From the sequence record PP069513: a stretch of 49,653 nt of DNA. One strand, 5' to 3'. Positions within the stretch are counted from its first letter, which is position 1. The number at the start of each line of letters is the position of its first letter. This DNA is from Escherichia phage BUCT-XGG-1. Shown one piece after another: positions 1,466 to 47,525 of the stretch. The translations under genes were made by a program, and so were the position numbers. The notes under the pieces are model-generated. The model searched no databases and was not told where the DNA came from. It saw only the letters and a program-made list of their open reading frames with translations.

Positions 1466-1756
1466 GTGGCGCTTAAAAATTATCAAGCAATAGATAAAAA
1501 GAAAGGACTTACATGCACCATGACAATTGATGATGTTGATGAGTTGCAGTCAATGCCATGCTACTATTGCGGAGATACGGAGCGGGTTGGTGCTGACAGG
1601 ATTGGCAACTCACTTGCTCACACGCGCAAAAACTGCCTTCCATGTTGCCCTGATTGTAATATCTGTAGGAGTAACACTTTTTCAGTTGATGAGATGATGG
1701 TGATAGGCAAAGCGATAAGACTCGTAAAGAAATCAAGAAATAGCACGAATTGCTAA
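1466..1756 (+). CDS. HNH-like endonuclease domain protein
   Basis: GTG start; Cys/His/Asn pattern CYYCG..DRI..H..N..PCC..CN; C-terminal NSTNC and stop encoded by the box. Confidence 0.45.
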   Translation: MALKNYQAIDKKKGLTCTMTIDDVDELQSMPCYYCGDTERVGADRIGNSLAHTRKNCLPCCPDCNICRSNTFSVDEMMVIGKAIRLVKKSRNSTNC

Positions 1757-1783
1757 AGCCCTTCGGGGCTTTTCCTGTATATT
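1739..1783 (+). promoter_or_regulatory. box promoter candidate (TGTATATT -10)
   Basis: Box 1739-1757, hairpin GCCCTTCGGGGC, TATATT at 1778-1783 (22-bp gap), leader CATCGAAACGAA, gene 1822. Confidence 0.5.
1758..1775 (+). terminator. intrinsic terminator-like hairpin
   Basis: GCCC TTCG GGGC followed by TTTTCC, directly after stop of 1466..1756. Confidence 0.4.
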
Positions 1784-1821
1784 CATCTCATCGAAACGAA
1801 ACACACTAAAGGAAAATAATC

Positions 1822-2175
1822 ATGGCTACCACTATCACCAAAAACTTCGTCACATCCGATAACCGCCTACTGAAAGCTCGCGTGAAAGATGAGGTAGAGC
1901 AAATCAAGGTTGATGGCAAGTGGGTTAACCTGGACGTCAAGGGGCGCTACATTAAGACCAAAACCCTTTACGTTACGAAGATTAATCACAAGTCTTCCGT
2001 TAAAAAAGACTTCACGCAAGGTAAACGCTATCAGGTTGACATGCGCGCAGGACTCGGTAGTAACGCTGGTTACATCTTCGACAACGACGGCGTAGCCTGG
2101 CAATTGTACCGCTCGGATGATGTCGGATTCGAAACAGTGTGCGGAACTTACCGATTTGAGGCGGCGTATAAATAA
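1822..2175 (+). CDS. hypothetical protein (117 aa)
   Basis: ORF with RBS AAAGGAAAA. Confidence 0.5.
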   Translation: MATTITKNFVTSDNRLLKARVKDEVEQIKVDGKWVNLDVKGRYIKTKTLYVTKINHKSSVKKDFTQGKRYQVDMRAGLGSNAGYIFDNDGVAWQLYRSDDVGFETVCGTYRFEAAYK

Positions 2176-4347: not shown

Positions 4348-4380
4348 AAAAAGGGAGCCTTTCGGCTCCTTTTATTTTTT
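4346..4380. terminator. bidirectional intrinsic terminator
   Basis: A-run, GGAGCC TTTC GGCTCC, T-run; lies between convergent plus early genes and minus lysis genes. Confidence 0.65.
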
Positions 4381-4785
4381 GCGTCGTTCCAGCCAAATTG
4401 AAAGAGCAATCATCAGAATGCCAATGAACAGGAATACCAGTCCGGCAATCAGATTACCTTTCGAGTCATCGTTCATGATCTCAATCTTATCAGCGATGAT
4501 GGTGTCAGCCTTGATGCTTGAGGTGCTGACAGACTTCCCGTTTGACGTATCAACCTTTCCTACCTTTGAATCTTTGATAGTGGTGTCGTTGTCGTTTGAC
4601 TTATCCACCTTTCCGGTAACGCCTACCGTTTGCTTCACGTTCTCAGCCCCAGCCTGCGCACTGATTTCTGGCTTGCTGCCAATTAAACCAGTCAGCGCAG
4701 ATGTCGCCGAACAACCTGATAACACGAACAAGGCCCACACTACGAAGCCGATAACCAAAGCGCGCTGTAAATTTAGACAACTCAT
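4372..4785 (-). CDS. unimolecular spanin (lipoprotein with C-terminal TMD)
   Basis: Lipobox LSGC near N-terminus and hydrophobic C-terminal segment, last gene of lysis cassette; architecture of T1 gp11-type u-spanins. Confidence 0.6.
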
Positions 4786-5279
4786 TCCTGTAGCTCCTTA
4801 ACACAATATTCATATTCGAATGCCCGACGATTCTTAAGCCCCTTGGACCGCTCTTTCTTTCCGGTCTTCGGATTCTTAAAGTAAGTCCAGGCCCATAGCT
4901 GTTCGCAAGCTTCAAGTAGTTTACCATGGTTAGTAAGTCTCAGCATAGTGGAATTACGGTAAGCACCAGTACCAACGTTGAAAGTGAAGCTGTACATTGC
5001 CGCACGGAAGTGATCTGGCACGTCAACCTTGATTTGCTTATCAACTTCACGCTTGGCGATGTCTATATGCTTGTATAGCAATGCGTCGCATTCTCTTTTG
5101 GTGTACGTCTTGCCGAGAATAACGTCAGGTCCAGTGATGCCAGCGCACACCGTCCATACTCCGGCAATATCCTTATATGGCTTGTACTCAACGCCCTCAA
5201 TCTTTTCAACGAGTGAAGGCGTTAGCGATAAAGCTACACCAAAAGAAATACTAGCAAGCGTCCTGTTTACGCTCATCAT
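4782..5279 (-). CDS. endolysin, lysozyme with N-terminal SAR-type signal
   Basis: N-terminal hydrophobic stretch then E-x8-D-x5-T lysozyme catalytic pattern ([16 protein letters not shown]); ATGA overlap with holin. Confidence 0.75.
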
Positions 5280-5494
5280 TATTTACCCCTTAGTTTAAGC
5301 GCCGTCGGCAAGTCTCCTGAGTCAAGCGCCTGACGAATGGCTTTGCTATCCTGATATTTCCAGTAAGCACCCCAAATGCCAAAACAAAAGAACAGGATGA
5401 ACGTCGCCCCCGCAATCGCCAGTTGGCCCGTCGCAGCGACAGCGAAAGATGCTCCGCCAGTGCCAGCCGTTACAGTGTTTAATACCTCTTTCAT
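5279..5494 (-). CDS. holin (pinholin-like, 71 aa)
   Basis: Two hydrophobic helices and charged C-terminus, directly upstream of SAR endolysin; start taken at MKEVL with GGTGG RBS. Confidence 0.55.
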
Positions 5495-5574
5495 ATGATC
5501 CACCATTTATGTAATTGTCAATATCTCAGTTAGTAAAAAATATAATACATTAGCACAGTATGAAAAAGAAGCGC

Positions 5575-8834: not shown

Positions 8835-9107
8835 TTATTTAACCTCGGTAACTTTACAGTTATTTACGGCAACAAACCCACCTACGCTAACTTTGACCTG
8901 ACTTTCAGTCACGTTGTAAACTGCCTTCCCCAAGAAAGTTTGCAGTTCGTAGTGATCGCCTTCACGCTCAATAACAACGCCTTTATCTGAAACAATCTGC
9001 GATTTGGTTACTGTGAAGGATTCCTTGCCGCAATCGTAAAACTTGGTATCTTCTGCGCAACCTGCCATTGCCACAACTGCCAGTAAAGCGATGATTGATT
9101 TTTTCAT
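8835..9107 (-). CDS. lipoprotein (possible superinfection-exclusion type)
   Basis: Signal peptide with lipobox MAGC; small size; first gene after box promoter. Confidence 0.5.
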   Translation of the reverse strand: MKKSIIALLAVVAMAGCAEDTKFYDCGKESFTVTKSQIVSDKGVVIEREGDHYELQTFLGKAVYNVTESQVKVSVGGFVAVNNCKVTEVK

Positions 9108-9146
9108 TTTGATTTCCTTGGTTGGTTACTTCGTTTCGATGAGGTG

Positions 9147-9192
9147 ATAATACACCACCTCACCGATTCGTCTTTAGCAATTAGTGCTATTC
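9147..9192 (-). promoter_or_regulatory. box promoter candidate
   Basis: Box ATAGCACTAATTGCTAAA (9173-9192) supplying NSTNC-stop of 9174..9602; TATTAT at 9147-9152 (22-bp gap); leader CATCGAAACGAA. Confidence 0.5.
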
Positions 9193-9602
9193 AGCATATC
9201 AGCAACGGCTTTCTTGTATTCCTCCTGGCCGTACGCCACCGCCGCGAATCCGCCACGCTCTCGGACACGCCGGAGGAAATCTTTCTGCTCCTTACTGACT
9301 GGTGATGCCTTTCCTTTTCCGCTCTTATTGACGCGCTTTAATTCTATGGCTCCGAAAGGATATTTACCGAACGGACCTAGAAGGAATACAAAGTCACTAA
9401 CCCCCTTCAATAACCCGCTCTGAGCATCCTTTAACGCCGTGTGGATGTGCTTCTTGTTCTCATTAACGGCGTGCCAGAACAGCAAATCACCATGCCTAAC
9501 CTTCGTCCAAGTCACGCAATCTACTTGGTGCTTGCTTTCCGTCCATGTGTCAGATTTGTCTGGCGTGTAATATTCAATGTAATCTATTTTATCGGTTTTC
9601 AT
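9174..9602 (-). CDS. VRR-NUC domain nuclease
   Basis: GVSDFVF ... AIELKR pattern matching VRR-NUC PD-(D/E)xK core. Confidence 0.55.
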   Translation of the reverse strand: MKTDKIDYIEYYTPDKSDTWTESKHQVDCVTWTKVRHGDLLFWHAVNENKKHIHTALKDAQSGLLKGVSDFVFLLGPFGKYPFGAIELKRVNKSGKGKASPVSKEQKDFLRRVRERGGFAAVAYGQEEYKKAVADMLNSTNC

Positions 9603-10081
9603 TTTTTCGCTCCGTGGTTTTTATGGAACCCATTGGTTGACTCTGTAAGTTTTCTTGCTGAGATTGCATCGGCAAGTGACCTTCCTTCGTATAGGAATTT
9701 TTTCTTACCGCCAATCTGTATCTGTGCTACCCATGTCTTATTCCTTGACTTCCAGTTAACTCCTGTAACTCCGCTTTTGTTGTTTGAATACATCGACTTG
9801 TTAAGCATGTTATCGCCGCGACTAACAAGCCTTAAGTTTTCTATTCTATTATCAGTTCTTATGTGGTTTATGTGGTCAACCTCCATTCCGTTCGGCATTG
9901 GTCCGTTATGCATTACCCAAACTATGACGTGAGCGGGTTATGACTTCTTTTTGTACATGACTTTAATGTAACCTTCGCTGTCTATAGTGCCGGCTAAGTC
10001 TCCCTCATACACCTTTGCGCTGGGCTTTATAGCCCAGAATAATAATCCATTTTTATAATTCAGTATGTTATTAAAAATCAT
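9599..10081 (-). pseudogene. HNH-AP2 homing endonuclease interrupted by in-frame TAA
   Basis: ATG at 10081 (ATGA overlap with helicase stop) gives MIFNNILNYKNG...YKKKS then TAA at 9938-9940, then in frame PAHVIVWVMHNG...DHINHIRTDNRIENLRLV; full-length paralogs at 17492, 36060, 12801. Confidence 0.6.
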
Positions 10082-16268: not shown

Positions 16269-16718
16269 TCAGAATGGGATGTCATCATCGAACTGGTTTT
16301 GCTGCTGCGGTTGCTGCTGCTGGCGTTGTTGCTGCTGAGGCTGCTGACGTTGTTGCTGCTGGCCTTGGCCCTGCTGTGATGGCTCACGCTGGCTGAATTG
16401 CAACTGAGGCCGGATCATCTCTGCGGTTACATAAACAGTGCCGTCATTACCCTGGCGTGACGCCAAGTGAAGCGTGTCGGCAGAAATTGATACAATCTTA
16501 CCTTCCTTGAACGCTTCATCATACCACTGCATAACGTTTTCTTTTGCGAAGAACGTAGCGCGGTAGTTACTGTAAACCGTCTCATCCTCGCCCTGTTGAT
16601 TGCGAATCTTCATGCGTTCTGACAGTTCGACGGCGTACATTTTCCAGCGCCCGTTGTTGTTGCTGCCTTCTTTGGTAAATGGTGCTTTTCGGATCTGACC
16701 AGTGATTACGTGTGGCAT
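16269..16718 (-). CDS. ssb: single-stranded DNA-binding protein
   Basis: Gln/Pro-rich linker and acidic C-terminal tip DDDIPF characteristic of bacterial-type SSB. Confidence 0.85.
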   Translation of the reverse strand: MPHVITGQIRKAPFTKEGSNNNGRWKMYAVELSERMKIRNQQGEDETVYSNYRATFFAKENVMQWYDEAFKEGKIVSISADTLHLASRQGNDGTVYVTAEMIRPQLQFSQREPSQQGQGQQQQRQQPQQQQRQQQQPQQQNQFDDDIPF

Positions 16719-17452: not shown

Positions 17453-17495
17453 ATTATAGCAAATCACCGCGTTCGTGTTTAGCAAAAAGTGCTAC
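17453..17495 (-). promoter_or_regulatory. box promoter candidate
   Basis: Box GTAGCACTTTTTGCTAAA (17478-17495) containing TAG stop of HNH gene; hairpin CGGTGATT..AATCACCG holding TGCTATAAT (21-bp gap). Confidence 0.5.
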
Positions 17496-17950
17496 CTGCC
17501 ATGCCTTAAAGTAAAATCACCATTCATTGAGATGTATCTTTCCCTTGCCTCTTTCGCTTCAATTGCCGTGTTGAAACTACCAAGGCTTTTCTGCACTCCA
17601 TTTACCTTTACCCTTGCGTTCCATTTACATCTTTGCTTAACAAAAACAACACCTGTGAATCCTGATGTGTTATTTGACTGCATCTTTTTATTTTTATTGT
17701 TGATGGCTCTAGTTACAAGTCTTAGGTTTTCAATCCTGTTATCACTTCTTATTCCGTTAATGTGGTCTATCTCGTAACCTTCTGGTATAGGTCCGTAGTG
17801 CATTTCCCATATAACCCTATGATATAGAAACTTCACATAGTTAAATGAGATCATTAAGTACCCGTTACCTTTCGGTGTTCCGGCAATCTTGCCGCTTTTT
17901 ATCCAGTAAAGGTTGCCGTCTATGTATTTTAATTTCTCATTGAAATTCAT
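17492..17950 (-). CDS. HNH-AP2 homing endonuclease
   Basis: EIDHINGIRSDNRIENLRLV HNH core and AP2-like C-terminal region; inserted between exonuclease and Erf. Confidence 0.8.
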   Translation of the reverse strand: MNFNEKLKYIDGNLYWIKSGKIAGTPKGNGYLMISFNYVKFLYHRVIWEMHYGPIPEGYEIDHINGIRSDNRIENLRLVTRAINNKNKKMQSNNTSGFTGVVFVKQRCKWNARVKVNGVQKSLGSFNTAIEAKEARERYISMNGDFTLRHGR

Positions 17951-18981
17951 AGTATTGACTCAAATTGCTTCATTACCCATGGCGGCGTCTCCAGTTCGAC
18001 TTCCGGCTCGCCATTATTGTATGAAGGCCACACATCATTGGCTTCGCACATTGAAAAGGTGTGAATCACGCTCATGTACTGCGCTCGCCCAATCTTAAGC
18101 TGATCGCCACTCATCCGGTACGCCATAGGCAAGTAAGGTTCTTTCTTCTCCTGGGCCAGCAAGCGCACAACCACAGGTCGCGTTTCCTCAAAGCATTTAA
18201 CGAACAGGTCACGCTGCAATGCCATCTTGAGGTAATATCCAAGGTTGAACGCCAGGCGCGGGAACTCGGTCGGGTTGGCGCTCATTGTCGTTTTGTAATC
18301 AGTGATGACGACGATTTCAGGGTGAATCTCAGGATCGTAACCCATGCGCCGAATTGCTTCTGGATCATTAATGATGTCAACATGGTCAAGTCGCACCTTA
18401 ACTTTAACGCCACATATTACGCCGAACAAAGAATACTCACGGAATGCCGTTTCGCTGTTCATGCAAGCGTTATGCTCAGGAATCATTTCAAGAACCTGGC
18501 GCATACTGACGCAAGCGTCGTAGTCTTCCGCCTTAACCAGTTCCACGCCATCTGCCCACGCCTGACATTGTGCGATCATATCAATCAGCCACATGACGTT
18601 GAGGTCTTCTCCGCAATCAACCATCATCTTGATCAGCTCTGGATATTGCTTGCCGCTTGTACCAGTCAGGCCAAATGATTTTAATTTCGTTGCCAATGCC
18701 GCCTGGCTAGTGATTACGTTTTCAATCTCGCTATCTTTCGGTGCACGGCGATACTGGCGTTCAAACAGTGCCTTACTCTCGAAATTGGTATGCGACTGCG
18801 TACCGAAGACCAGTGCCTTAGTCGTCGAGTTCATTTCAAACTTCCACGCCGCAGGGCAAGTACTGTGGATCTTGCTGAGTGACGAACCTGATACATACTC
18901 GGCGGTCCACTCATCTTTGCTGTGGTAAAAGTCGTTGCTCATTTCTTCTGACGTGAAGTATTGAAACAGTGGCTTTGTCAT
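17947..18981 (-). CDS. PD-(D/E)xK recombination exonuclease
   Basis: RLDHVD ... ITDYKT motif consistent with a PD-(D/E)xK nuclease; partner position to Erf. Confidence 0.55.
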   Translation of the reverse strand: MTKPLFQYFTSEEMSNDFYHSKDEWTAEYVSGSSLSKIHSTCPAAWKFEMNSTTKALVFGTQSHTNFESKALFERQYRRAPKDSEIENVITSQAALATKLKSFGLTGTSGKQYPELIKMMVDCGEDLNVMWLIDMIAQCQAWADGVELVKAEDYDACVSMRQVLEMIPEHNACMNSETAFREYSLFGVICGVKVKVRLDHVDIINDPEAIRRMGYDPEIHPEIVVITDYKTTMSANPTEFPRLAFNLGYYLKMALQRDLFVKCFEETRPVVVRLLAQEKKEPYLPMAYRMSGDQLKIGRAQYMSVIHTFSMCEANDVWPSYNNGEPEVELETPPWVMKQFESIL

Positions 18982-19266
18982 CTCTTTAATCCTCGTTAGT
19001 TGTTGATGCTGGTAACTATACTCGCTTGGTTGCGTTAGTCAAGTGGTTACATGTAGATGTTTGTAATCACGTGTATGCAATGGCGTCAGTTACATAAAAT
19101 GTCTATCCATACCAGCTATAGCTTGATGTAAACAGCTTGTATATCGTGTATACCATTTTTCGCTGAGGGTGCATTAGTGTATGCGTGATTAGATACTGTA
19201 TGAATATACATATTAGAAATTTATAAGCGGAATACTCTATAGAAGTAGTTACACGATATACACAGT

Positions 19267-19345
19267 AATATATATAATAATAATAATTATAGTAGAGGGT
19301 TGATATATATAGATATTTTAATGTAACTATCGCGTAACTAGGCGT
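19267..19345 (+). repeat. AT-rich element, copy A of a two-copy repeat
   Basis: ATATATAATAATAATAAT..GAGGGTTGATATAT..GATATTTTAATGTAAC..GCGTAACT, homologous to 48941-49016; GTAACT/GTTACA iterons around it. Confidence 0.6.
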
Positions 19346-19412
19346 AACTGCGCGTATATCATTTTCCGCGGACGAGATTGTATACATCGAGTTACATCGG
19401 TTACACGTATAC

Positions 19413-19458
19413 AATAGCACAAATAGCTAAAGACTCCGCCGCTCGTTGCATGTATAGT
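19413..19458 (+). promoter_or_regulatory. box promoter candidate (variant AATAGCACAAATAGCTAAA)
   Basis: Box 19413-19431, TGTATAGT at 19453-19458 (23-bp gap), then membrane peptide and lipoprotein genes. Confidence 0.45.
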
Positions 19459-19494
19459 TACTCCATAGAAAGCAAATCACATAAGGGTTAAGAA

Positions 19495-19590
19495 ATGAAA
19501 AACGTAATCATCTCAATAATTTTCGGCGCGGCTGTTACTGGTTTCTTCGTGTGGGTTCTCACTCTTGCTTCTAACTTCAACGGATTCTAA
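19495..19590 (+). CDS. small membrane peptide (31 aa)
   Basis: Unlisted ORF MKNVIISIIFGAAVTGFFVWVLTLASNFNGF; hydrophobic. Confidence 0.3.
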   Translation: MKNVIISIIFGAAVTGFFVWVLTLASNFNGF

Positions 19591-19591
19591 T

Positions 19592-19816
19592 ATGAAAAAG
19601 TTAATTTTGATTGTGGCTGCACTTGCCTTTACTGGTTGTTCATCAATGCCTGAGCGCACTTGCACGGCTGTGTATGAATCAGGCGGTGCAGATTACTCGG
19701 TTTATGTTTTTGGTACGCAGAAACGCGGAGAGGAACTTTTACTCAGGGCTGGATACCCATTCTCGTTTCACTACGTATCTGAGCGTAACTTCAAAGATCA
19801 TGACTGCGGCGGTTGA
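19592..19816 (+). CDS. lipoprotein (possible Cor-like exclusion protein)
   Basis: MKKLILIVAALAFTGC lipobox; small; start taken at ATG 19592. Confidence 0.45.
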   Translation: MKKLILIVAALAFTGCSSMPERTCTAVYESGGADYSVYVFGTQKRGEELLLRAGYPFSFHYVSERNFKDHDCGG

Positions 19817-19820
19817 TTAA

Positions 19821-19845
19821 TAAAAAAGCCCCGAAAGGGGCTTTA
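19821..19845. terminator. bidirectional intrinsic terminator
   Basis: A6 GCCCC GAAA GGGGC; strongest for minus strand after the late operon. Confidence 0.65.
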
Positions 19846-20535
19846 ATCGTATGCGGCTGTGTTAATTGCAGTAATCACATTACCGTTATTCGTAGTGCTA
19901 AGAACTTGACCGCCCCCCATTGTTGACTGGGCGTTTATTCTTGTTCTGCTTCCATCAAACCTACACGATGAGCCAGCTGTCGCGTTAGATATTATTGGTT
20001 GACCTGTTGGTAGTGAGCCAACCCGTATCTGACTGTTGCCAAGTGTGGTAGGAACAACCGCCCAGCTACCATTTAGTGTAACATCTATGTTTAATCCACC
20101 ACCAGAAAATCCAGGCGTACCAACTGTTGTTAAATCACTCAAAACCTTTGTCTCGTTTGTAAGAATTAGCTTACCTTGAGCATCCCATATAGCCATACCC
20201 CACCTAGGAAGGGTTTGAGGGAATATTGCAAAAATATAATACGTCAGAACAAATGACTGATTATTTGGGTTTACGCCCTGAAAGTAAATCTTACCAACGT
20301 TTGCACCGGATCTAAACGTGAATGCTGAGAGTGCTGTGCCATTACTGGTATTTGTCGTTTTGCAAAATGCAATAACTGGCACACCCTGCGGTATGTTTAC
20401 GTATCTCTCTGCATACTGAGTTCTGTTTTTTTCACCAGACGATATTGTGCCTTTAGAGTAAAGGGCGAACGGTGTTGATAAAGGTGTTATAAACGGGTTT
20501 CCGTTCACATCTATAAAAGCTCCATATTCAGCCAT
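19843..20535 (-). CDS. distal tail protein (possible receptor-binding accessory)
   Basis: Last gene of late operon; N-terminus MAEYGAFIDVNGNPF paralogous to 20535..20843. Confidence 0.45.
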   Translation of the reverse strand: MAEYGAFIDVNGNPFITPLSTPFALYSKGTISSGEKNRTQYAERYVNIPQGVPVIAFCKTTNTSNGTALSAFTFRSGANVGKIYFQGVNPNNQSFVLTYYIFAIFPQTLPRWGMAIWDAQGKLILTNETKVLSDLTTVGTPGFSGGGLNIDVTLNGSWAVVPTTLGNSQIRVGSLPTGQPIISNATAGSSCRFDGSRTRINAQSTMGGGQVLSTTNNGNVITAINTAAYD

Positions 20536-20843
20536 TATGATTTCTCCAGGTATGCTATCAAATAGCAGTTTGATGATGGGTACACGTTCGCCCCTGGTGA
20601 TGACGTCGGGGTTATAGTGATCTTATTGCCGCTGGCTACAATCTTTCTTGCTGGTCCGCTTATCGCACCATCATCAAGACTGATAACAAACCCTACCTTT
20701 GTTCCTGCTGGTATTGAGTATGAAAAAGAGTATGAGTTTTTGCCAGCCGAAAGGAAATCAAAACCAACAACACTGACAGGTTTGATACCATAGTTGTTAT
20801 ATTTACCATTTGCATCATATGTAGCAATTCCGTATTCATCCAT
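20535..20843 (-). CDS. distal tail protein paralog
   Basis: N-terminus MDEYGIATYDANGKY similar to downstream gene; overlapping stop/start. Confidence 0.45.
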   Translation of the reverse strand: MDEYGIATYDANGKYNNYGIKPVSVVGFDFLSAGKNSYSFSYSIPAGTKVGFVISLDDGAISGPARKIVASGNKITITPTSSPGANVYPSSNCYLIAYLEKS

Positions 20844-20890
20844 AATTTTTCTCCAATTTAAAAGGCAAGTCCATTTGCCTATGTTATCAC

Positions 20891-23800
20891 TTAGTAAGAG
20901 CCAGTCAAACGTCCGATCTGAACTCTAAGCATACCAGAACCATCTGCAACCGATATAGTTTGGTTTGTTTGTTTCATCTTGCCCTCTCCAGATGTTGAGC
21001 CGTTATTCTCGAATGTACCCCCTTTGTCAAGCCTCCAACCAGTCTGACCTGCAACATAGTTGTTGGACTCAATCTCGTTACCGATTTTTGCGTTGGTAAT
21101 GGAGCCATTCTTGATGAATGCGTCACGCATAAATACCTGCGAACCTTCAATAAGGAACGGGAACTGCGCCAGAGTTCCGCCAGAAATCCTACCGACTGCG
21201 AACCTGTCAACGTCAAACAATACCTGTGCTTTCGGTGCCGATTCGCTGCCAACTAACTGCATACCGAACCCAGCATTGTACTCAACGCCGTCGCGCTTAA
21301 TACCCAGCTTGACGGTGTACGTTGAACCTACCGAACCGTTATCAATCCACGAGTCAAGTTTCTGGCTTACCGTCGCTGCCGCCTGATTCGCCGTGTTCTC
21401 CGCATTACCTGCCGCAGTGTTAGCCGCGTTTGCTTTCGCTTCAACCTGAGTGATTGCCGATGCCCTGGCGCTTGCCTCATCTGCGATTGCTTTATCCACT
21501 CGCGTGATTGATGCCTGAGTCTCAGTTTTTAAATCGCCAACCTGCTTAGTAAACTTGGTGTCGAGTGCCGTAATTGCCTGCGCTCTAGCCATGCTCTCAT
21601 TGGTGATTGCCTCATCCAAACGACCGATGCTTGCGTTAGTCGTAGTGGTAAGGTCGCCTACCTGCTTAGTGAACTTAGCATCAAGCTCCTGTACTGCCTT
21701 CACCCGCGCTTCCGTTTCTGTCGCCACCGCTTCCTTAATGGTAGTGATCTGGCCCTGAATGTCATCACCGATGCTTGCTCTCAGTTCTTCGATTGCAGCG
21801 ACGCGTGCCTCAGTCTCAGTAGCGATAAGTTCTACAGCGTGACCATACTCAGCCTTACGAAGTCCATTCTGTTTCCTGGTCCAAATCAGGTTGTAATCGT
21901 TAGCCAGGGCGTTGTGAATATCCGCCTGCGCCTGCTCCCTGATCTTGTTTGCGCTTTCGATTGTGCTTTCAGCAAGCTCCTTGAAGATCTCAGAGTTTTC
22001 AATGTCAATCTTAACGACGTCCATAATCTGATCCGCATCATCCGAAGCCATACCCCTGACAAAATCAGTCCATTCAGACACGTTACCGATCCTGTCAACC
22101 GATCGGATTCTGTACCAGTCAACGTAACCAGCCGGAAGAACGCTGTGCCAGTATTCGTACTGCGGATAAGGGATCAGCGTAAGCAGTGATGAATCACTAA
22201 CCTGACCTGACGGCGATTGATGCAATTCAATGTAGGCCGTATCCTCTGTTCCCGCTGGCATACCCCATTTCACGCGAATGCCGAATACTTCGTCCGTACT
22301 GGCTGTCAGGTTAATTGGTTTGCCTGGTGCGCCAATCTTGCCTGTCAACCCAACACTCACAACCTCAGACCATGGAGACGCATTCTCTCCGCTTGAGATG
22401 CTCCTTACGCGTACGTGATAATTGCCTGCGTAAATCCCTTCAACCTCGACTTCTTTGTTTGCTGTGCGCGGTACGTTCATCCAGTTGCCATTGTCCTTGC
22501 GCCACTGCACATCGTACTTGCTCGCGTACTGCACTTTATCCCATGAGATGACCATAGTTTCTACGCTCATTCCCTGGACAATCCTTGAGTATGAAGACGC
22601 CTTGATATTTTTAGGCGGCTGCATGTTGTCAGGATCTACAATGCTGGTTGGTCGGTCATCAATATTTACGCCGTAGTCGATTTCGTCGTATTTGTTCGGA
22701 TCGTATTCAACTGCCGTGATGCTGTATGTGAACTCATCATCTCCGTCGCCCTTCGTGATTCCGGTTACAACGTATTGCTGCAAGGCCACATCAGTGCGGT
22801 CGATTGCGAACACTGTGTTGGGTTGAACATCAAAGCCGAATCCAATGTTAAGCTCAATGGTTTTCCCGTCCGCAGATACTTTTGAAATCGTCCGACGCAC
22901 CGGATTTCCGTCAGCCTTGTTCACGATAATGAAATCACCAGCGCGCGCATCGACCTTAAAGTGTGTGAACACTTGCAGGCCTGACACTTCCATTACACGA
23001 CCTGATAACGAAAGCGTCAGATTGCTTGACCAGAAGTTATCAGCGATTGCTACCACGTCGCCAATCATCGGAATCATACCCTCAAGGCCAGTTGCAAAAC
23101 TCACCGTTGTGCTGCGAAGGTTTGTTTTGAGAACCCAGCGGCCCCGTCGATTCGCTTCACTGCGTCGAGTACATCCGATCGCCGTAATGCTTGTCGGGTT
23201 ATGCCCGAAGCGTAACGAAGCGTTAAGGTCGAACACCCCCTCAATGTCTTGGCTGTACATGTTCTGCTCATCGTCGAACGTGACGTTGCATGTTGTGTAC
23301 ATGCTTTTTTCACTTGCGAACGTATAGGCAAATGAGCCATCAACGACGTTATCGTTAGTAAAAATATACGACGCCTCTCTCGGTCGGTCGATGACAATTG
23401 AAAGGCTCTCGCCGTTCCAGAAGCTCATTCCTCGGAATATTGAGCAAATGTCTCGCACAAGATTGTACGCTTCAACCTGAGATTGAATAACTACATCGCA
23501 AAGATAGCGAGGCTCTGTTCCGCCGTGACCGTCTGGCACTTTCTGGTCGCAGTATTGACCAGCGTCATATAGTGACCACTTATCAACTGCAATCCCCAAT
23601 TCACGTTGGTCGAGTCCGTAGCGCTGATTGGTGATCAAATCATAAAGCACCCACGCCGGATTATTTGACCACGCTTTTTTGAAGCTGCCATCCCATGTGC
23701 CGTTATACTCGCGAAGCTCTGGATTATAGTTGCTCGGAACGTTAATGAGCTTCCATTTCTTTTTCGTGCTAATGCTTGGGATCTGCGTGAATAGCTCGCT

Positions 23801-24499
23801 GTTAAACTCGACGTAAACAAGACCAGTCAGAGGGTAACGGAATTTAGCATCAACCACTTCGGCATAAGACTGAATGTTTATCGTATCAACGACGCGCGCA
23901 TCAGTTGAATCAGCCGTAACTCGGCGCACACGCAATAGAACCTGGCTATTGAACGTTGGTAGGTCGATTCGCTTTGTTTTGTCATATCCGCTAATTGTCT
24001 TTCCGTCGATTACGTCCGATAAAACCTCTTGGTAGCTCCCGCCATCAACCGCCATATCTACGGCCCACTTCACGACCACGCCGACCATATCGCCGTTTTC
24101 TTTCGTGGTAACGCCGCGAGGCATCAGGATTTTGACGCGTACGGCTGATAGCTGTTTATTCGTTACCGAGATCACGTAGGGCGTCGTTGTTTTCAATTCA
24201 CGACCTACAGTAAATTCAGCCGCCGTGTCGTTGAAGCCTTTGATGTAATCCTGTGTCTGAGTACCAGGTCTGAACTCAGCCGTTACTCCTTCATAGTTAA
24301 CCTCGCCGGAAGGTGCAATTACAGGAACATCATTAAGATACAAGTCCTTTAATGAGAAATTAGCATCAACCTCGCCATCACTGACAGCGAGTAAAACCTT
24401 AATCTTGTTGATTGAGATCAGGTTATCTTCCATCTCCTGTGGGGTATGCGGCTTGCTGCTGCCACCCTTTCGGCCAGTCACTACATTATTTTTAATCAT
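20891..24499 (-). CDS. tail tip/central fibre protein (lambda J-like host specificity protein)
   Basis: 1202 aa, follows M-L-K-I homologues; fibronectin-III-like segments and imperfect ~35-39-aa repeats (TETEARV, FTKQVGDL). Confidence 0.8.
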   Translation of the reverse strand: MIKNNVVTGRKGGSSKPHTPQEMEDNLISINKIKVLLAVSDGEVDANFSLKDLYLNDVPVIAPSGEVNYEGVTAEFRPGTQTQDYIKGFNDTAAEFTVGRELKTTTPYVISVTNKQLSAVRVKILMPRGVTTKENGDMVGVVVKWAVDMAVDGGSYQEVLSDVIDGKTISGYDKTKRIDLPTFNSQVLLRVRRVTADSTDARVVDTINIQSYAEVVDAKFRYPLTGLVYVEFNSELFTQIPSISTKKKWKLINVPSNYNPELREYNGTWDGSFKKAWSNNPAWVLYDLITNQRYGLDQRELGIAVDKWSLYDAGQYCDQKVPDGHGGTEPRYLCDVVIQSQVEAYNLVRDICSIFRGMSFWNGESLSIVIDRPREASYIFTNDNVVDGSFAYTFASEKSMYTTCNVTFDDEQNMYSQDIEGVFDLNASLRFGHNPTSITAIGCTRRSEANRRGRWVLKTNLRSTTVSFATGLEGMIPMIGDVVAIADNFWSSNLTLSLSGRVMEVSGLQVFTHFKVDARAGDFIIVNKADGNPVRRTISKVSADGKTIELNIGFGFDVQPNTVFAIDRTDVALQQYVVTGITKGDGDDEFTYSITAVEYDPNKYDEIDYGVNIDDRPTSIVDPDNMQPPKNIKASSYSRIVQGMSVETMVISWDKVQYASKYDVQWRKDNGNWMNVPRTANKEVEVEGIYAGNYHVRVRSISSGENASPWSEVVSVGLTGKIGAPGKPINLTASTDEVFGIRVKWGMPAGTEDTAYIELHQSPSGQVSDSSLLTLIPYPQYEYWHSVLPAGYVDWYRIRSVDRIGNVSEWTDFVRGMASDDADQIMDVVKIDIENSEIFKELAESTIESANKIREQAQADIHNALANDYNLIWTRKQNGLRKAEYGHAVELIATETEARVAAIEELRASIGDDIQGQITTIKEAVATETEARVKAVQELDAKFTKQVGDLTTTTNASIGRLDEAITNESMARAQAITALDTKFTKQVGDLKTETQASITRVDKAIADEASARASAITQVEAKANAANTAAGNAENTANQAAATVSQKLDSWIDNGSVGSTYTVKLGIKRDGVEYNAGFGMQLVGSESAPKAQVLFDVDRFAVGRISGGTLAQFPFLIEGSQVFMRDAFIKNGSITNAKIGNEIESNNYVAGQTGWRLDKGGTFENNGSTSGEGKMKQTNQTISVADGSGMLRVQIGRLTGSY

Positions 24500-34926: not shown

Positions 34927-36063
34927 TTACTTTTTGTTAATTAATTTTTTCAGTCGATCTTGCGGATCAAATGATTCGTTTTCTTTACCGTCAGATTTGT
35001 CGGCAGTGCCGAAAACCTTAACGCGCTGAGCGGCCATTTTATCAGACTCTTTAGCCAAATCAAAGGCAGCTTCGATGTACGAGTCAGATTTCTCAGTAGC
35101 ATCAATACCAGAAACCTCCTTGATGTAGGCAACCTTAATTTCTTTTGCGCCAAGTCCATCGCACTTAATGCCAATCTCACCAGCAATAGCAACCAGGCCA
35201 GCCAGCTCATCAGCGTCAGCTTTTGCTTTAGCAACAGCGGCTTCGATCTGTGCTGGAATGCCATCCACTTTAACTTTCAGAGCGTCGCGCTCAGCTTCAA
35301 TTTCGCTAACCTTTTTCTTTTCTGCATCTGCATCTGCCTTGATGGATGCGATGTGGTCAGCTACGTCTTTTGACACTTCCACTTCTGCGGAATCAATTTT
35401 GATTTTTACGGTCATTTTACTTTCCTCTTTTGGTAATTGAACATGCTCATCATATTTAATTTCTTCTGAGCCGTCAAGGTTTAATCTGGCAATACCTGCG
35501 CGACCGTGCTTTACCTTGGCGACGTGGTTTGGGATGATGTTCGTTTGCAGCACGTCAAACTCTTCCCACTCGTCGGTCATGACGGTTCCGTTAGGGAATT
35601 GCGCCTCCATTCCCTCAGCGTCATCCTTGAAAACATACTCGCCAGTATTGACGTTTCCCCACCCTTCGCGGTGAATGTCATTGGTCTTGTAACCAACCGA
35701 CAATTCTGCGGCGTCGCCACGCTTGGCGGATTCAATTGATTCCTTGTCGTGAATTACGATCGGACACTTCAAGCCAATACCATCACGACGACCAGCGCCG
35801 GATAGTGAGCCGACAACAATCTTCCGCGCGTTGCTTGTGCTTACTTCCTGGTGGCCCTCTACGATCGGCATACCGCGAAACAGTTCCATCGCCTCGGCCT
35901 TGAACACTTCGTTTGCTGGTCGGAACTCACGCTGAATTGTTCCATCGGCACGCATATATTCCTGAATACCGATTCGCGCAATGATTGGCTCATCATGCAT
36001 GAATCCGTTAGAGTCAAAGCGTGCTTTCAGTTGCACGCTATCGTATCGTTGCTTAGTGGTCAT
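34927..36063 (-). CDS. prohead scaffold / protease-like protein
   Basis: 378 aa with Ala/Lys/Glu/Asp-rich helical C-terminal half typical of scaffolds. Confidence 0.5.
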   Translation of the reverse strand: MTTKQRYDSVQLKARFDSNGFMHDEPIIARIGIQEYMRADGTIQREFRPANEVFKAEAMELFRGMPIVEGHQEVSTSNARKIVVGSLSGAGRRDGIGLKCPIVIHDKESIESAKRGDAAELSVGYKTNDIHREGWGNVNTGEYVFKDDAEGMEAQFPNGTVMTDEWEEFDVLQTNIIPNHVAKVKHGRAGIARLNLDGSEEIKYDEHVQLPKEESKMTVKIKIDSAEVEVSKDVADHIASIKADADAEKKKVSEIEAERDALKVKVDGIPAQIEAAVAKAKADADELAGLVAIAGEIGIKCDGLGAKEIKVAYIKEVSGIDATEKSDSYIEAAFDLAKESDKMAAQRVKVFGTADKSDGKENESFDPQDRLKKLINKK

Positions 36064-36545
36064 TTTTTACTCCCGTGATTTTTATGAAATTTATATACAG
36101 ACTCCGCAACCTTTCTTGCAGAGATTGCGTCATCTTTTCTATCGTATCTACCAAGGAATTTCTCCTTTTTGTCCACCCTTATTGAAGCAATCCATTTACT
36201 GGTTCTATTACACCAGCTAACGCCAACAACTCCGCTTTTGTTTGACTTGCTCATGGATACGTTTTTGCAATTCTCTTGTCTAGTAGTTACGAGCCTTAGG
36301 TTTTCTATCCTGTTATCATCTCTGATATGGTTTATATGGTCAATCTCCATTCCTTCAGGTATTTTACCATGGTGCATCTCCCATATTACCCTATGAGCCG
36401 GAGTTAGCCTACCCATAATCCTAACGTAAATATATCCACCCTCATCCTTCCAGCCAGCCATATCGCCAACTTTAACCCTTTTCGATGTCGGATTTTTCCA
36501 GATGAGATCTTTCTCTATATGATAAAAATAATCATTGAAATTCAT
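36060..36545 (-). CDS. HNH-AP2 homing endonuclease
   Basis: EIDHINHIRDDNRIENLRLV core and AP2-like tail; inserted between head morphogenesis and scaffold genes with 4-nt overlaps. Confidence 0.8.
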   Translation of the reverse strand: MNFNDYFYHIEKDLIWKNPTSKRVKVGDMAGWKDEGGYIYVRIMGRLTPAHRVIWEMHHGKIPEGMEIDHINHIRDDNRIENLRLVTTRQENCKNVSMSKSNKSGVVGVSWCNRTSKWIASIRVDKKEKFLGRYDRKDDAISARKVAESVYKFHKNHGSKK

Positions 36546-46492: not shown

Positions 46493-46723
46493 TCATAAAT
46501 ACCCCTTCTCAGCGCGGTGGGCCGCTTCCATCAGATACACTGCCAACTGGCGCGCCTGGTCTGGCGTGTACACCATGTAACTTGATGCGTCAACATACTC
46601 TTCAGGATTGAAGTCAACGCACACCTTGAATGCAAAGCCCTGGGTGCTGCTATGCAGTTTCTTTACCATTACCTCGGCCTGTTCGCCTGAGTCGTCAGCG
46701 ATGCGTACGGCGGTTGTGCTCAT
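46493..46723 (-). CDS. hypothetical protein (76 aa)
   Basis: ORF after box promoter; RBS AAGGGG. Confidence 0.4.
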   Translation of the reverse strand: MSTTAVRIADDSGEQAEVMVKKLHSSTQGFAFKVCVDFNPEEYVDASSYMVYTPDQARQLAVYLMEAAHRAEKGYL

Positions 46724-46762: not shown

Positions 46763-46806
46763 ACTATAGCAAATGCACTCACGGCAGTTTTAACAAAAAG
46801 TGCTAT
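46763..46806 (-). promoter_or_regulatory. box promoter candidate
   Basis: Box 46788-46806 containing TAG stop; hairpin GAGTGCA..TGCACTC with TGCTATAGT (22-bp gap). Confidence 0.5.
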
Positions 46807-47093
46807 CGTTCATCTTCTCTGGAGCATCCCTTGCCGCAACCATGGCGACCAACTCCCACGATCCCGGCGCCGCTTAAGCTGATGTATTCCTGACCAGTGT
46901 CCTTATCGGTGATGACGTATATCGCTCTGACGTTCTCATATGCCAGTTCATCCCTGAACTCCTGAATCTTCACAACCTGGACGCGATCGTTGACATTCAC
47001 TGGCATCTTCTGCCGAGCCTCTGAATCTACACAGGTGCTTCCGAAATCACATCCAGCCAGAGCTAGTGCTGCTAATAAAATTAGTTTCTTCAT
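46803..47093 (-). CDS. lipoprotein
   Basis: MKKLILLAALALAGC signal peptide with lipobox. Confidence 0.5.
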   Translation of the reverse strand: MKKLILLAALALAGCDFGSTCVDSEARQKMPVNVNDRVQVVKIQEFRDELAYENVRAIYVITDKDTGQEYISLSGAGIVGVGRHGCGKGCSREDER

Positions 47094-47501: not shown

Positions 47502-47525
47502 TTCCTCTTTGTTGTCTATGGGGTA

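What the first reader, a model, noticed from the sequence alone, without database searches (positions are those of the whole stretch)
8835..9107. Three small lipoproteins, candidates for superinfection exclusion or receptor masking
Lipobox-containing small ORFs occur at 8835..9107 (MAGC), 19592..19816 (FTGC, preceded by a 31-aa membrane peptide) and 46803..47093 (LAGC), each expressed from a box promoter. In T1-like phages small lipoproteins of this size are known to block the phage receptor. Three in one genome could target different receptors or envelope steps.
Basis: partly seen in the sequence, partly recalled or inferred. Interest (0 to 1): 0.45.

Follow-up and report, generated by a model that had tools for sequence, protein, structure and literature searches.

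The report
One Cor plus two unrelated phage lipoproteins
This T1-like coliphage does encode the three small lipoproteins, but only one is the known FhuA-blocking exclusion protein Cor; the other two belong to unrelated families of unknown function, and one of those two is predicted to fold like a bacterial lysozyme inhibitor.

Summary
Three ORFs with lipoprotein signal peptides sit at the stated coordinates: 8835..9107 (-), 19592..19816 (+) and 46803..47093 (-).

- Lp2 (19592..19816) is a textbook Cor. It is 77% identical to T1 Cor, scores above the NCBIfam curated cut-off, and lies in the T1-type FhuA host-recognition cassette.
- Lp1 (8835..9107) shows no detectable relation to Cor, Llp or Rtp45. 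It is fixed between the VRR-NUC and Dam genes in Drexlerviridae that use different receptors. It is 100% identical in phage P817, which has a different receptor module. Its AlphaFold model is a disulfide-stapled beta-barrel whose best structural matches are the lysozyme/muramidase inhibitors PliC, MliC, PhiA and ACP. Sequence-level homology to these is not established.
- Lp3 (46803..47093) belongs to a large family (281 clusters at 50% identity) of membrane-tethered periplasmic domains. Members were seen among early-type genes of T1-like and Mu-like elements and in jumbo phages. An invariant Asp at +2 predicts inner-membrane retention. No known fold matches.

Two of the three genes sit directly behind a real repeated "box" promoter motif; Lp3 is the third gene of a box-driven unit.

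Overall: one known exclusion gene plus two conserved hypothetical proteins, each with a new, testable lead.

The parts
19592..19816 (+). Lp2 = cor, the superinfection-exclusion lipoprotein (74 aa, lipobox FTGC, Cys16; conserved Cys24/Cys72 and AGYPF motif)
   Evidence: phrog_1119 E 1.7e-27. NCBIfam NF047972 scores 50.6 bits against a cut-off of 31. 76.7% identical to T1 Cor and 35% to phi80 Cor. All family-invariant columns are kept.
19495..19590 (+). 31-aa single-pass membrane peptide ORF, first gene of the cor transcription unit
   Evidence: ORF. 69-72% aa identity to ORFs directly upstream of cor in JulesPiccard and RobRod40. Absent in T1.
19414..19431 (+). Box motif (ATAGCACAAATAGCTAAA) upstream of the 31-aa ORF and cor. 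A TATAGT hexamer follows at 19453..19458.
19825..19844 (.). GC-rich hairpin between the convergent cor and 230-aa genes. The scan called it a terminator on the minus strand; a bidirectional role is my inference.
19843..20535 (-). 230-aa 'membrane associated protein' of the FhuA-type host-recognition cassette
   Evidence: phrog_425 E 7.6e-69. 75% identical to the T1 homologue.
20535..20843 (-). 102-aa 'outer membrane protein' of the same cassette, directly downstream of the J-like tail tip gene (20891..24499)
   Evidence: phrog_557 E 2.7e-27. 77% identical to the T1 homologue.
8835..9107 (-). Lp1: 90-aa lipoprotein (lipobox MAGC, Cys17, Ala+2). Mature domain of about 73 aa with invariant Cys26 and Cys84. 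Predicted 8-9-stranded beta-barrel.
9173..9190 (-). Box motif (ATAGCACTAATTGCTAAA) inside the 3' end of the VRR-NUC gene, 65 nt upstream of the Lp1 ATG. A TATTAT hexamer at 9147..9152 lies within an inverted repeat at 9141..9161.
46803..47093 (-). Lp3: 96-aa lipoprotein (lipobox LAGC, Cys15, Asp+2). Flexible linker, then a 60-aa all-beta domain (residues 37-96) ending in ...DER.
47090..47290 (-). 66-aa ORF (phrog_2010, unknown function) whose stop overlaps the Lp3 start (ATGA), which suggests translational coupling
47552..47569 (-). Nearest upstream box motif for the unit ORF 47349..47549 / ORF 47090..47290 / Lp3
46789..46806 (-). Box motif that overlaps the Lp3 stop codon and precedes the next gene (46493..46723)
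4372..4785 (-).
   Evidence: phrog_1804 'Rz-like spanin' E 1.6e-47. The homologue is annotated as a (u-)spanin in GaoY1-9D and P817.

Best explanation
The three ORFs are real lipoprotein genes. They belong to three unrelated families, have different predicted envelope addresses, and probably do different jobs.

(1) Lp2 is Cor. After signal peptidase II processing it should sit in the inner leaflet of the outer membrane (Ser+2). There it would bind the periplasmic face of FhuA, so that this phage, its progeny and other FhuA-dependent phages cannot use an infected cell or its debris. It is co-transcribed with a conserved 31-aa membrane peptide from a box promoter. It belongs to a T1-type FhuA recognition cassette (J, 102-aa protein, 230-aa protein, cor) that was swapped into a Nouzillyvirus-like backbone. 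Identity is shown; the mechanism is inferred from work on Cor and Llp.

(2) Lp1 is an accessory lipoprotein of many Drexlerviridae, embedded in the helicase / VRR-NUC / Lp1 / Dam operon. It is predicted to be outer-membrane anchored (Ala+2). It folds as a small disulfide-stapled beta-barrel of the MliC/PliC/PhiA type. My best guess (about 0.3) is that it binds and inhibits a periplasmic peptidoglycan hydrolase. The target could be an exogenous or host lysozyme or lytic transglycosylase, or a murein hydrolase of a superinfecting phage. That would be a receptor-independent function analogous to T4 Spackle. It is not a receptor mask.

(3) Lp3 is a member of a very large family seen in diverse phages, in which a 60-aa all-beta periplasmic domain is tethered by a lipid, a TM helix or a prepilin-like helix. 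In coliphages the invariant Asp+2 predicts retention on the outer face of the inner membrane. In the two contexts where gene order could be read (this window and a Mu-like element) it lies among early-type genes. It most likely acts on an inner-membrane or periplasmic process, for example DNA entry of a second phage as with Imm, SieA or gp15 (about 0.15-0.2). No specific target can be named.
For: Cor:
- Family and similarity.
- Cassette synteny and 75-77% identity of both neighbouring proteins to T1.
- Literature on the Cor/FhuA cassette and on Llp: PMC13164509, PMC9586334 and PMC12685063.
- Module swap.

Lp1:
- Conserved synteny in Tls, KP36 and IsaakIselin.
- Invariant lipobox and two invariant Cys.
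- Confident AF2 barrel.
- The Cys pattern matches E. coli MliC: FYDC...VNNC against EYQC...LNNC. MliC is an 8-stranded barrel stapled by a conserved disulfide (PMC2267010).
- Lp1 is 100% identical in P817 despite a different receptor module.
- It evolves faster (34-36% identity) than its flanking genes (55-69%).

Lp3:
- Family size.
- By a rule-based scan, 107 of 149 listed members have a lipoprotein signal. Most of the rest have a hydrophobic N-terminal anchor, a few of them prepilin-like.
- Homologues in jumbo phages, in a Mu-like element and in T1-like phages.
- Asp+2 is invariant among close homologues.
- Many invariant polar residues: D48, Y52, D63, E95, plus R, H and E positions.
- Confident all-beta model without a known fold match.
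Against: Nothing was tested experimentally.

Lp1:
- No member matches the Pfam MliC model.
- The family profile finds no PDB sequence at E <= 10.
- Mature-only hhalign against an MliC profile gives only P = 0.03 over 15 columns.
- The lysozyme-contacting stretches conserved in the three aligned MliC/PliC sequences (ISxSGAxY and YxxWxKG) are not conserved. Only GxAxY remains.
- T1 lacks Lp1 yet has a 65%-identical endolysin, so Lp1 is not an obligate partner of the phage's own lysin.
- No murein hydrolase domain was found in the tape measure protein.

Lp3:
- The +2 rule is an E. coli rule, and across the whole family +2 is variable.
- The proposed function is a guess from location and timing only.
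Confidence: 0.65

Rival explanations
1. One reading: all three are outer-membrane receptor masks of the Cor/Llp/Rtp45 type, each blocking a different receptor or envelope step.
For: All three are small lipoproteins whose mature part holds a Cys near the N-terminus and a Cys near the C-terminus, as in Cor. PHROG scans give weak hits of Lp1 and Lp3 to the Cor family (E 0.002-0.003). Two are directly behind the same promoter type as cor. Exclusion lipoproteins for different receptors (Cor, Llp, Rtp45) are mutually very divergent, so lack of sequence similarity is not decisive.
Against: The weak PHROG hits cover the signal peptide. Mature-only profiles give P = 0.29 and 0.19. Neither gene lies in the receptor locus, where all known Drexlerviridae exclusion genes sit (PMC8594841; PMC13164509). 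Lp1 is identical in P817, which has another receptor module, and is present in YncD- and TolC-dependent phages. Lp3 has the inner-membrane retention residue. The phage carries only one receptor-binding cassette, so there is no obvious second or third receptor of its own to mask.
Confidence: 0.1
2. Lp1 (and possibly Lp3) are lysis-timing accessories. They would restrain the SAR endolysin, the pinholin or the spanin until the proper time, or protect against lysis from without.
For: Lp1 has the fold of proteinaceous lysozyme inhibitors. The phage endolysin is a GH24 Phage_lysozyme with an N-terminal hydrophobic segment; a relative annotates its homologue as a SAR endolysin. That would expose it to the periplasm before lysis. 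Both lipoproteins are periplasmic.
Against: Neither gene lies in or near the lysis cassette (4372..5506). T1 has a 65%-identical endolysin but no Lp1 or Lp3. MliC/PliC are known to inhibit c-type (GH22) enzymes, not GH24, and their contact motifs are missing.
Confidence: 0.12
3. Lp1 is simply a small beta-barrel binding module with a target unrelated to murein hydrolases, for example an immunity-like protein against a toxin, or a lipid or ligand binder. The MliC/PliC resemblance would be convergent topology.
Against: The top of both structure searches is enriched for the MliC/PliC/PhiA/ACP group, which has the same size, the same periplasmic or lipoprotein setting and the same first-strand/last-strand Cys pair.
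Confidence: 0.3
4. Lp3 is a membrane-tethered periplasmic nuclease-like protein that attacks incoming DNA. The family motif RGIY-x10-YIG resembles the GIY-YIG signature.
For: The consensus RGxYxIxDxxTGxEYIGVSG reads like GIY-x10-YIG. Five of 101 members give weak Pfam SegE_GIY-YIG hits (best E 0.016; matched stretches). Conserved R, H and E residues follow the motif.
Confidence: 0.04

Closest known systems
Cor of phages T1, phi80, N15 and HK022 (NCBIfam NF047972, phrog_1119)
   Same: Lp2 is 77% identical to T1 Cor over its full length. It has the same lipobox, Cys pair, AGYPF motif, size, orientation and position next to the J / 102-aa / 230-aa cassette.
   Different: A conserved 31-aa membrane-peptide ORF lies between the promoter and cor. 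This is shared with Braunvirinae such as JulesPiccard and is absent in T1. The backbone genome is Nouzillyvirus-like, and its nearest relative lacks the cassette. Lp1 and Lp3 are not related to this family.
T5 Llp and Rtp Rtp45 (outer-membrane exclusion lipoproteins that bind the periplasmic face of FhuA or LptDE)
   Same: They share Cor's logic: a small lipoprotein encoded beside the receptor-binding gene that blocks the cognate receptor from inside (PMC9586334, PMC12685063). Published modelling finds a Cor fold similar to Llp (PMC13164509).
   Different: Lp2 and Llp have no significant sequence similarity (phmmer E 1.1, signal-peptide region only). Lp1 and Lp3 match neither by sequence, and no chain described as Llp or Rtp45 is listed in the fold searches.
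MliC/PliC family (COG3895, PF09864) and the fold-related PhiA and Neisseria ACP inhibitors
   Different: There is no Pfam or profile match. The barrel is about 15 residues shorter. The ISxSGAxY and YxxWxKG stretches that are invariant in the three aligned MliC/PliC sequences are not conserved. It is encoded by a virulent phage in a replication-gene operon.
T4 Spackle (gp61.3)
   Same: A functional analogy proposed for Lp1. Spackle is an early, periplasmic phage protein that inhibits a murein hydrolase (the gp5 lysozyme) and so excludes superinfecting phage independently of the receptor (PMC7677548, PMC7650644; abstracts).
   Different: By established knowledge Spackle is a soluble protein, not a lipoprotein. 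I did not compare its fold or sequence with Lp1. No target hydrolase is known for Lp1.
Inner-membrane superinfection-exclusion proteins (T4 Imm, P22 SieA, HK97 gp15)
   Same: A functional analogy proposed for Lp3. These are phage proteins at the inner membrane that stop DNA entry (SieA: PMC10883804; Imm and gp15 from established knowledge).
   Different: By established knowledge those are integral membrane proteins. Lp3 is a lipid-tethered periplasmic beta domain. I ran no direct comparison, and no phenotype is known for Lp3.

Membership tests
Cor exclusion lipoprotein (NF047972 / phrog_1119): Lp2 | Profile score above the curated family cut-off | tested here: met
   NF047972 scores 50.6 bits against a cut-off of 31, E 1.4e-13. 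phrog_1119 E 1.7e-27 over residues 1-73.
Cor exclusion lipoprotein: Lp2 | Lipoprotein signal peptide with lipobox Cys; conserved mature Cys pair; AGYPF motif | tested here: met
   G15, C16, C24, C72 and A53-G54-Y55-P56-F57 are invariant across T1, phi80, N15, Henu8, GeorgBuechner, JulesPiccard, RobRod40 and the window.
Cor exclusion lipoprotein: Lp2 | Position in the FhuA-type cassette downstream of the J-like gene, with the 102-aa and 230-aa proteins, convergent orientation | tested here: met
   Same order as in T1, JulesPiccard and RobRod40. Neighbouring proteins are 75% and 77% identical to T1. The cassette's link to FhuA is described in PMC13164509.
Cor exclusion lipoprotein: Lp2 | Confers exclusion of FhuA-dependent phages / binds FhuA | not testable with these tools
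   Needs expression and plating assays.
Cor/Llp/Rtp45-type receptor-masking lipoproteins: Lp1 and Lp3 | Sequence or profile similarity of the mature domain to a known exclusion lipoprotein | tested here: not met
   hhalign of mature domains against Cor: P = 0.29 (Lp1) and 0.19 (Lp3). Family profiles against all PDB sequences at E <= 10 return no Llp (8A60) or Rtp45 (9RPS). The weak PHROG hits cover the signal peptide.
Cor/Llp/Rtp45-type receptor-masking lipoproteins: Lp1 and Lp3 | Encoded in the receptor-binding locus and co-varying with receptor specificity | tested here: not met
   Lp1 lies between VRR-NUC and Dam in every genus examined. It is 100% identical in P817, which lacks the cor cassette. 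It is present in the YncD-dependent IsaakIselin. Lp3 lies in the early small-gene region, 26 kb from the J gene.
MliC/PliC lysozyme inhibitors (PF09864 / COG3895): Lp1 | Eight-stranded antiparallel beta-barrel | tested here: met
MliC/PliC lysozyme inhibitors: Lp1 | Conserved disulfide-forming Cys pair (first and last strands) | tested here: met
   C26 is invariant and C84 at least 90% conserved in 51 sequences. The positions parallel E. coli MliC C37/C102: FYDC..VNNC against EYQC..LNNC. The disulfide is described in PMC2267010. Bond formation itself is inferred.
MliC/PliC lysozyme inhibitors: Lp1 | Match to the family sequence profile | tested here: not met
   None of 51 members hits PF09864 at E <= 10. 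hhalign of mature Lp1 against an MliC profile gives probability 1.7% and P 0.03. The full-length hhalign signal (83%) comes mostly from the signal peptide.
MliC/PliC lysozyme inhibitors: Lp1 | Lysozyme-contacting motifs (SxSGAxY loop and YxxxTKG loop) | tested here: not met
   In the alignment of three MliC/PliC sequences, ISxSGAxY and YxxWxKG are invariant. Lp1 retains only G60-x-A62-x-Y64 and has a shorter hairpin in place of the second motif. That these loops contact lysozyme is from established knowledge.
MliC/PliC lysozyme inhibitors: Lp1 | Inhibits a lysozyme in vitro | not testable with these tools
   Needs purified protein and enzyme assays.
GIY-YIG nuclease superfamily: Lp3 | GIY-x(9-11)-YIG hairpin followed by the helical region carrying the catalytic Arg/Glu/Asn; alpha/beta fold | tested here: not met
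Bacterial lipoproteins (all three) | n-region with Lys/Arg, hydrophobic h-region, lipobox [LVI][ASTVI][GAS]C within the first 35 residues, conserved in homologues | tested here: met
   (rule-based). Pfam LPAM_1 E 0.0019 for Lp1. Conservation. The -3 residues M (Lp1) and F (Lp2) are atypical, but relatives have L or I there. Lipidation itself is not testable here.

The most novel reading that the evidence does not exclude
Lp1 would be a phage-encoded, miniaturised MliC/PliC-type inhibitor. It would neutralise a periplasmic murein hydrolase and give many Drexlerviridae a receptor-independent, Spackle-like protection of the infected cell. Candidate targets are a superinfecting phage's cell-wall-piercing enzyme, a host lytic transglycosylase or an environmental lysozyme. 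Lp3 would define a family, seen in very different phages, of inner-membrane-tethered periplasmic effectors with a conserved polar active surface and a C-terminal DER.
Probability: 0.2. Interest if true: 0.65.

Novelty: new member of a known kind. Interest (0 to 1): 0.4.

Why it matters
Cor itself adds nothing new beyond predicting that this phage uses FhuA and that its receptor module was exchanged horizontally.

The other two proteins are more useful.
- Lp1 is conserved in at least 233 deposited phage genomes, including therapeutic-candidate Klebsiella weberviruses. It is annotated 'hypothetical' or, in two of the records listed, '(putative) adhesin'.
- Lp3 belongs to a family with hundreds of sequence clusters in T1-like, Mu-like and jumbo phages.

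A demonstrated function for either would annotate many genomes at once. It would also add to the short list of known periplasmic phage effectors. If Lp1 proves to be a murein-hydrolase inhibitor, it would be a second, structurally unrelated example of the T4 Spackle strategy. It would also link bacterial anti-lysozyme proteins with phage-phage competition.

Tried and rejected
- Word-indexed homologue searches with single Lp1 and Lp3 sequences found only close relatives. IMG/VR pattern scans found 1-2 loci.
- The exhaustive HMMER search (Lp3) and a profile-seeded search (Lp1) were needed to get usable alignments.
- Pfam, NCBIfam and PHROGs give no functional name for Lp1 or Lp3. Weak DUF6440 hits (7 of 101 Lp3 members, best E 0.004) led nowhere: one unrelated paper mentions the family, and ten further members gave no hit.
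- PDB sequence searches with both family profiles were empty.
- The AFDB50 fold library was unavailable.
- 'All three are Cor paralogues' is rejected by mature-only profile comparisons.
- 'Lp3 is a GIY-YIG nuclease' is rejected on fold.
- 'Lp1 regulates the phage's own endolysin' is weakened because T1 has the same endolysin but no Lp1.
- The simple sigma-70 scan found no promoter upstream of any of the three genes. The box motif explains this: its TTGCTA/TTGTTA hexamer sits about 22 nt from the -10-like hexamer.
- The inverted repeat at 9141..9161 is unique in the window. It is the short palindrome around the -10-like hexamer that several box promoters have.
- The genome-contig scan with MliC returned only Enterobacteriaceae orthologues. 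The MliC profile used for hhalign was therefore shallow (Neff about 2).
Full report
WHAT THE WINDOW IS

The 49.6-kb window is essentially a complete genome of a T1-like coliphage (Drexlerviridae). The nearest deposited relatives are P817, vB_EcoM_50EP and ESCO41, at about 90% identity over 55-70% of the first 25 kb. P817 is classified in Nouzillyvirus.

CHECKING THE OBSERVATION

All three ORFs exist exactly where stated.
- Lp1: 8835..9107, minus strand, 90 aa, MKKSIIALLAVVAMAGC|AE.
- Lp2: 19592..19816, plus strand, 74 aa, MKKLILIVAALAFTGC|SS. It is preceded by a 31-aa hydrophobic ORF at 19495..19590.
- Lp3: 46803..47093, minus strand, 96 aa, MKKLILLAALALAGC|DF.

A rule-based scan finds five ORFs of at least 60 aa with a lipoprotein-type signal. 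Shuffled sequence gives 0.22 on average.
- One of the five is a nested out-of-frame ORF at 2389.

In each of the three family alignments the lipobox Cys is invariant or nearly so. These are genuine lipoprotein genes.

THE 'BOX PROMOTER'

The motif is real. ATAGCAC-N4-TG(C/T)TAAA occurs 20 times within two mismatches, against 1.6 expected. The 18 copies I extracted, leaving out the two weakest matches inside the terminase gene, point towards a downstream start codon wherever one can be read. About 22 nt further on there is a TATAGT, TATTAT or TATAAT hexamer, then a leader and a Shine-Dalgarno sequence.

- One copy lies 65 nt upstream of the Lp1 start (9173..9190).
- One lies 63 nt upstream of the 31-aa ORF that precedes cor (19414..19431).
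- Lp3 has none of its own. Its ATG overlaps the stop codon of ORF 47090..47290, and the unit begins at the box at 47552..47569, two ORFs upstream.

The generic sigma-70 scan missed all of these, because the spacing between the two hexamers is unusual.

LP2 IS COR

- It matches PHROG 1119 'Cor superinfection exclusion protein' at E 1.7e-27.
- It scores 50.6 bits against the curated cut-off of 31 for the NCBIfam equivalog NF047972, 'phage exclusion lipoprotein Cor'.
- It is 76.7% identical to T1 Cor, 79% to JulesPiccard Cor, and 33-36% to the Cor proteins of phi80, N15 and HK022.
- It keeps every invariant column of an alignment spanning those phages: G15, C16, C24, C72 and the AGYPF motif.

The neighbourhood is the T1 arrangement: J-like tail tip gene, a 102-aa protein, a 230-aa protein, then cor on the opposite strand. 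The two neighbouring proteins are 77% and 75% identical to their T1 counterparts.

This cassette has been described as a consistent feature of FhuA-dependent phages. Cor is described as an outer-membrane lipoprotein that blocks FhuA, with a predicted fold and docking site like T5 Llp (PMC13164509; T5 Llp structure PMC9586334).

P817 shares a 96%-identical exonuclease and a 76%-identical J protein. It has no cor, no 230-aa protein and no 102-aa protein, and carries a 320-aa ORF instead. The window phage therefore carries a horizontally exchanged receptor module. This fits the modular exchange of these loci described for small siphophages (PMC8594841).

The 31-aa membrane peptide is conserved (69-72% aa identity) immediately upstream of cor in JulesPiccard and RobRod40. 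It is absent from T1. Its role is unknown.

LP1 IS NOT COR-LIKE

Lp1 belongs to PHROG 7420, of unknown function. It is found in 233 phage records. These are mostly Klebsiella weberviruses, but also include Tls (gp60), IsaakIselin, and Salmonella and Citrobacter phages, at 31-39% identity.

In every genus I looked at, it sits between the VRR-NUC gene and the Dam methylase gene, downstream of the helicase. T1 lacks it: there VRR-NUC is followed directly by Dam, and tblastn finds nothing.

Lp1 diverges faster (34-36% identity) than its flanking genes (55-69%).

It does not follow the receptor.
- It is 100% identical in P817, which has a different receptor module.
- It occurs in IsaakIselin, which depends on YncD.
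- It occurs in Tls, a TolC-dependent phage by established knowledge.

With the signal peptide removed, a profile-profile comparison with the Cor family gives P = 0.29. The family profile finds no PDB sequence, including Llp and Rtp45, at E <= 10.

An AlphaFold2 model built on 51 sequences is confident (pLDDT above 90 for residues 21-89) and is a small beta-barrel.

Foldseek's best hit is PhiA, with probability 0.97 but E 0.27.

E. coli MliC is itself a lipoprotein with an eight-stranded barrel held by a conserved disulfide (PMC2267010). Its two cysteines lie in contexts (EYQC...LNNC) that mirror the conserved cysteines of Lp1 (FYDC...VNNC).

Against membership:
- No Lp1 homologue hits the Pfam MliC model.
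- Mature-only hhalign gives only P = 0.03 over 15 columns.
- The ISxSGAxY and YxxWxKG stretches conserved in MliC/PliC are not kept.

I therefore call Lp1 'MliC/PliC-like in fold and setting'. Homology and function remain unproven.

The labels 'adhesin' and 'putative adhesin' that two deposited genomes give this gene may reflect the same resemblance to the Neisseria adhesin complex protein. I could not verify how those labels were assigned.

The phage endolysin is a GH24 Phage_lysozyme and is 65% identical to T1's. T1 has no Lp1, so Lp1 is not an obligate partner of that enzyme.

LP3 IS NOT COR-LIKE EITHER

Its best PHROG is 16585, of unknown function. An exhaustive HMMER search of 1.84 billion cluster representatives with the mature protein finds 281 representatives at E <= 0.001.

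- By a rule-based scan, 107 of the 149 listed members have a lipoprotein signal.
- Most of the rest have a hydrophobic N-terminal anchor (several more lipoboxes were missed by the filter). In a few the anchor is a prepilin-type GFTxxE helix.

The domain is therefore an extracytoplasmic module that only needs a membrane tether.

Homologues with intact lipoboxes occur in:
- Serratia jumbo phage 2050HW, Burkholderia phage BcepSauron and an Enterobacter phage;
- a 379-kb jumbo-phage-like contig;
- a Mu-like element, fused behind Gam, downstream of a 726-aa ORF and an AAA_22 (MuB-like) gene.

The alignment shows an unusually polar set of invariant residues: D48, Y52, D63, G77 and E95. R37, R56, Y59, T66, H84 and R96 are at least 90% conserved. 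Most members end with a C-terminal ...DER.

The residue after the lipidated Cys is Asp in every close coliphage homologue that retains the lipobox, while the next residue varies (F, L, S, D). It is also Asp in the NBD2 and Enterobacter phage homologues. By the established E. coli +2 rule this predicts retention in the inner membrane. Lp1 (Ala+2) and Cor (Ser+2) should instead go to the outer membrane.

The core motif RGIY-x10-YIG resembles the GIY-YIG signature and draws a few sub-threshold Pfam hits. The fold evidence speaks against a nuclease.

T1 lacks Lp3.

HOW IT MOST LIKELY WORKS

Shown: three lipoprotein genes from three unrelated families, and Lp2's identity as Cor within an FhuA-type cassette.

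Inferred from the literature on Cor and Llp: Lp2 binds the periplasmic side of FhuA and prevents further FhuA-dependent adsorption or injection. This protects the infected cell and spares progeny from being lost on debris.

Inferred from fold and genomic behaviour: Lp1 is a receptor-independent periplasmic binder. Its most likely target is a murein hydrolase (about 0.3), by analogy with MliC/PliC/PhiA and, functionally, with T4 Spackle (PMC7677548).

Inferred from the predicted address and gene position: Lp3 acts at the outer face of the inner membrane early in infection. It may act against DNA entry of competitors (about 0.15-0.2).

COMPARISON, NOVELTY AND VERDICT

Cor is already known, and here it is simply another allele. 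Lp1 and Lp3 are members of existing but uncharacterised PHROG families. I found no paper that assigns them a function.

New here:
- the structural lead for Lp1;
- the evidence that Lp1 is independent of the receptor module;
- the breadth of the Lp3 family, its interchangeable anchors and its Asp+2 signal.

Its interpretation is right for one gene of three. Interest is moderate.

Noticed in passing
window, 18 sites, e.g. 255-272(+), 1740-1757(+), 7868-7885(-), 9173-9190(-), 19414-19431(+), 42753-42770(-), 46789-46806(-), 47552-47569(-): Repeated promoter-like 'box' ATAGCAC-N4-TG(C/T)TAAA: 20 matches against 1.6 expected. About 22 nt downstream lies a TATAGT, TATTAT or TATAAT hexamer, often inside a short palindrome, followed by a conserved leader (TCATCGAAACGAA). 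The gap between the TTGCTA/TTGTTA hexamer and the -10-like hexamer is too long for a canonical sigma-70 promoter. This may point to a phage- or activator-dependent promoter class. A Drexlerviridae protein with a Sigma70_r4_2 domain is annotated in KP36.
   Followed up: partly
window 4372..4785 (-): A fourth lipoprotein gene, not in the finding: the unimolecular spanin of the holin / endolysin / spanin cassette (lipobox LSGC; phrog_1804, E 1.6e-47).
   Followed up: yes
window 19495..19590 (+); L002 2647..2802; L001 2573..2803: The 31-aa single-pass membrane peptide upstream of cor is conserved (69-72% aa, C-terminal ...AVTGFFVWVL.LASNF.GF) in Braunvirinae phages JulesPiccard and RobRod40. It is absent from T1. 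It may be a small partner or regulator of Cor.
   Followed up: partly
window 19490..20890 against L099 (P817) 18868..19830: The receptor-binding/cor cassette is mosaic. P817 shares a 100%-identical Lp1 and a 96%-identical exonuclease, but replaces cor and the 230-aa and 102-aa genes with one 320-aa ORF. The J proteins are 76% identical up to about residue 1169 of 1202.
   Followed up: partly
L009 (phage NBD2, KX130668.1) 1587..1907: The deposited CDS NBD2_05 (1681..1920) is in the wrong frame. The real ORF (106 aa, lipobox LTGC|DN) is the Lp3 homologue.
   Followed up: yes
Lp3 family (alignment A1); window 46803..47093: The family's core motif RGIY-x10-YIG-VSG mimics the GIY-YIG nuclease signature. 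Most members end in ...DER. In this window the stop codon TAG is part of the next box promoter.
   Followed up: partly
L105/L106 (Rariglobus MAG, protein P0071); L104 (379-kb contig, P0032): The Lp3-type domain occurs fused behind a Mu Gam domain and a prepilin-like N-terminal-methylation helix in a Mu-like element. It also occurs in a jumbo-phage-like array of small genes.
   Followed up: partly
window 9820-9932, 17710-17822, 36284-36396: A 113-nt direct repeat family (69-78% identity) lies within three small ORFs (9599..9913, 17492..17950, 36060..36545). The first has HNH-like sequence features, so these may be homing-endonuclease paralogues.
   Followed up: no
window 19274-19345 and 48952-49023: A 72-nt AT-rich repeat (79% identity) lies in the two large intergenic regions. 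Both copies are within about 300 nt of box promoters and may be shared regulatory or origin-like sequence.
   Followed up: no
window 16286-16408: A tandem GCTGCTG/GTTGCTG-rich repeat (15-nt period, 6 copies) lies inside ORF 16269..16718 (-), probably encoding a low-complexity Gln/Ala-rich stretch.
   Followed up: no
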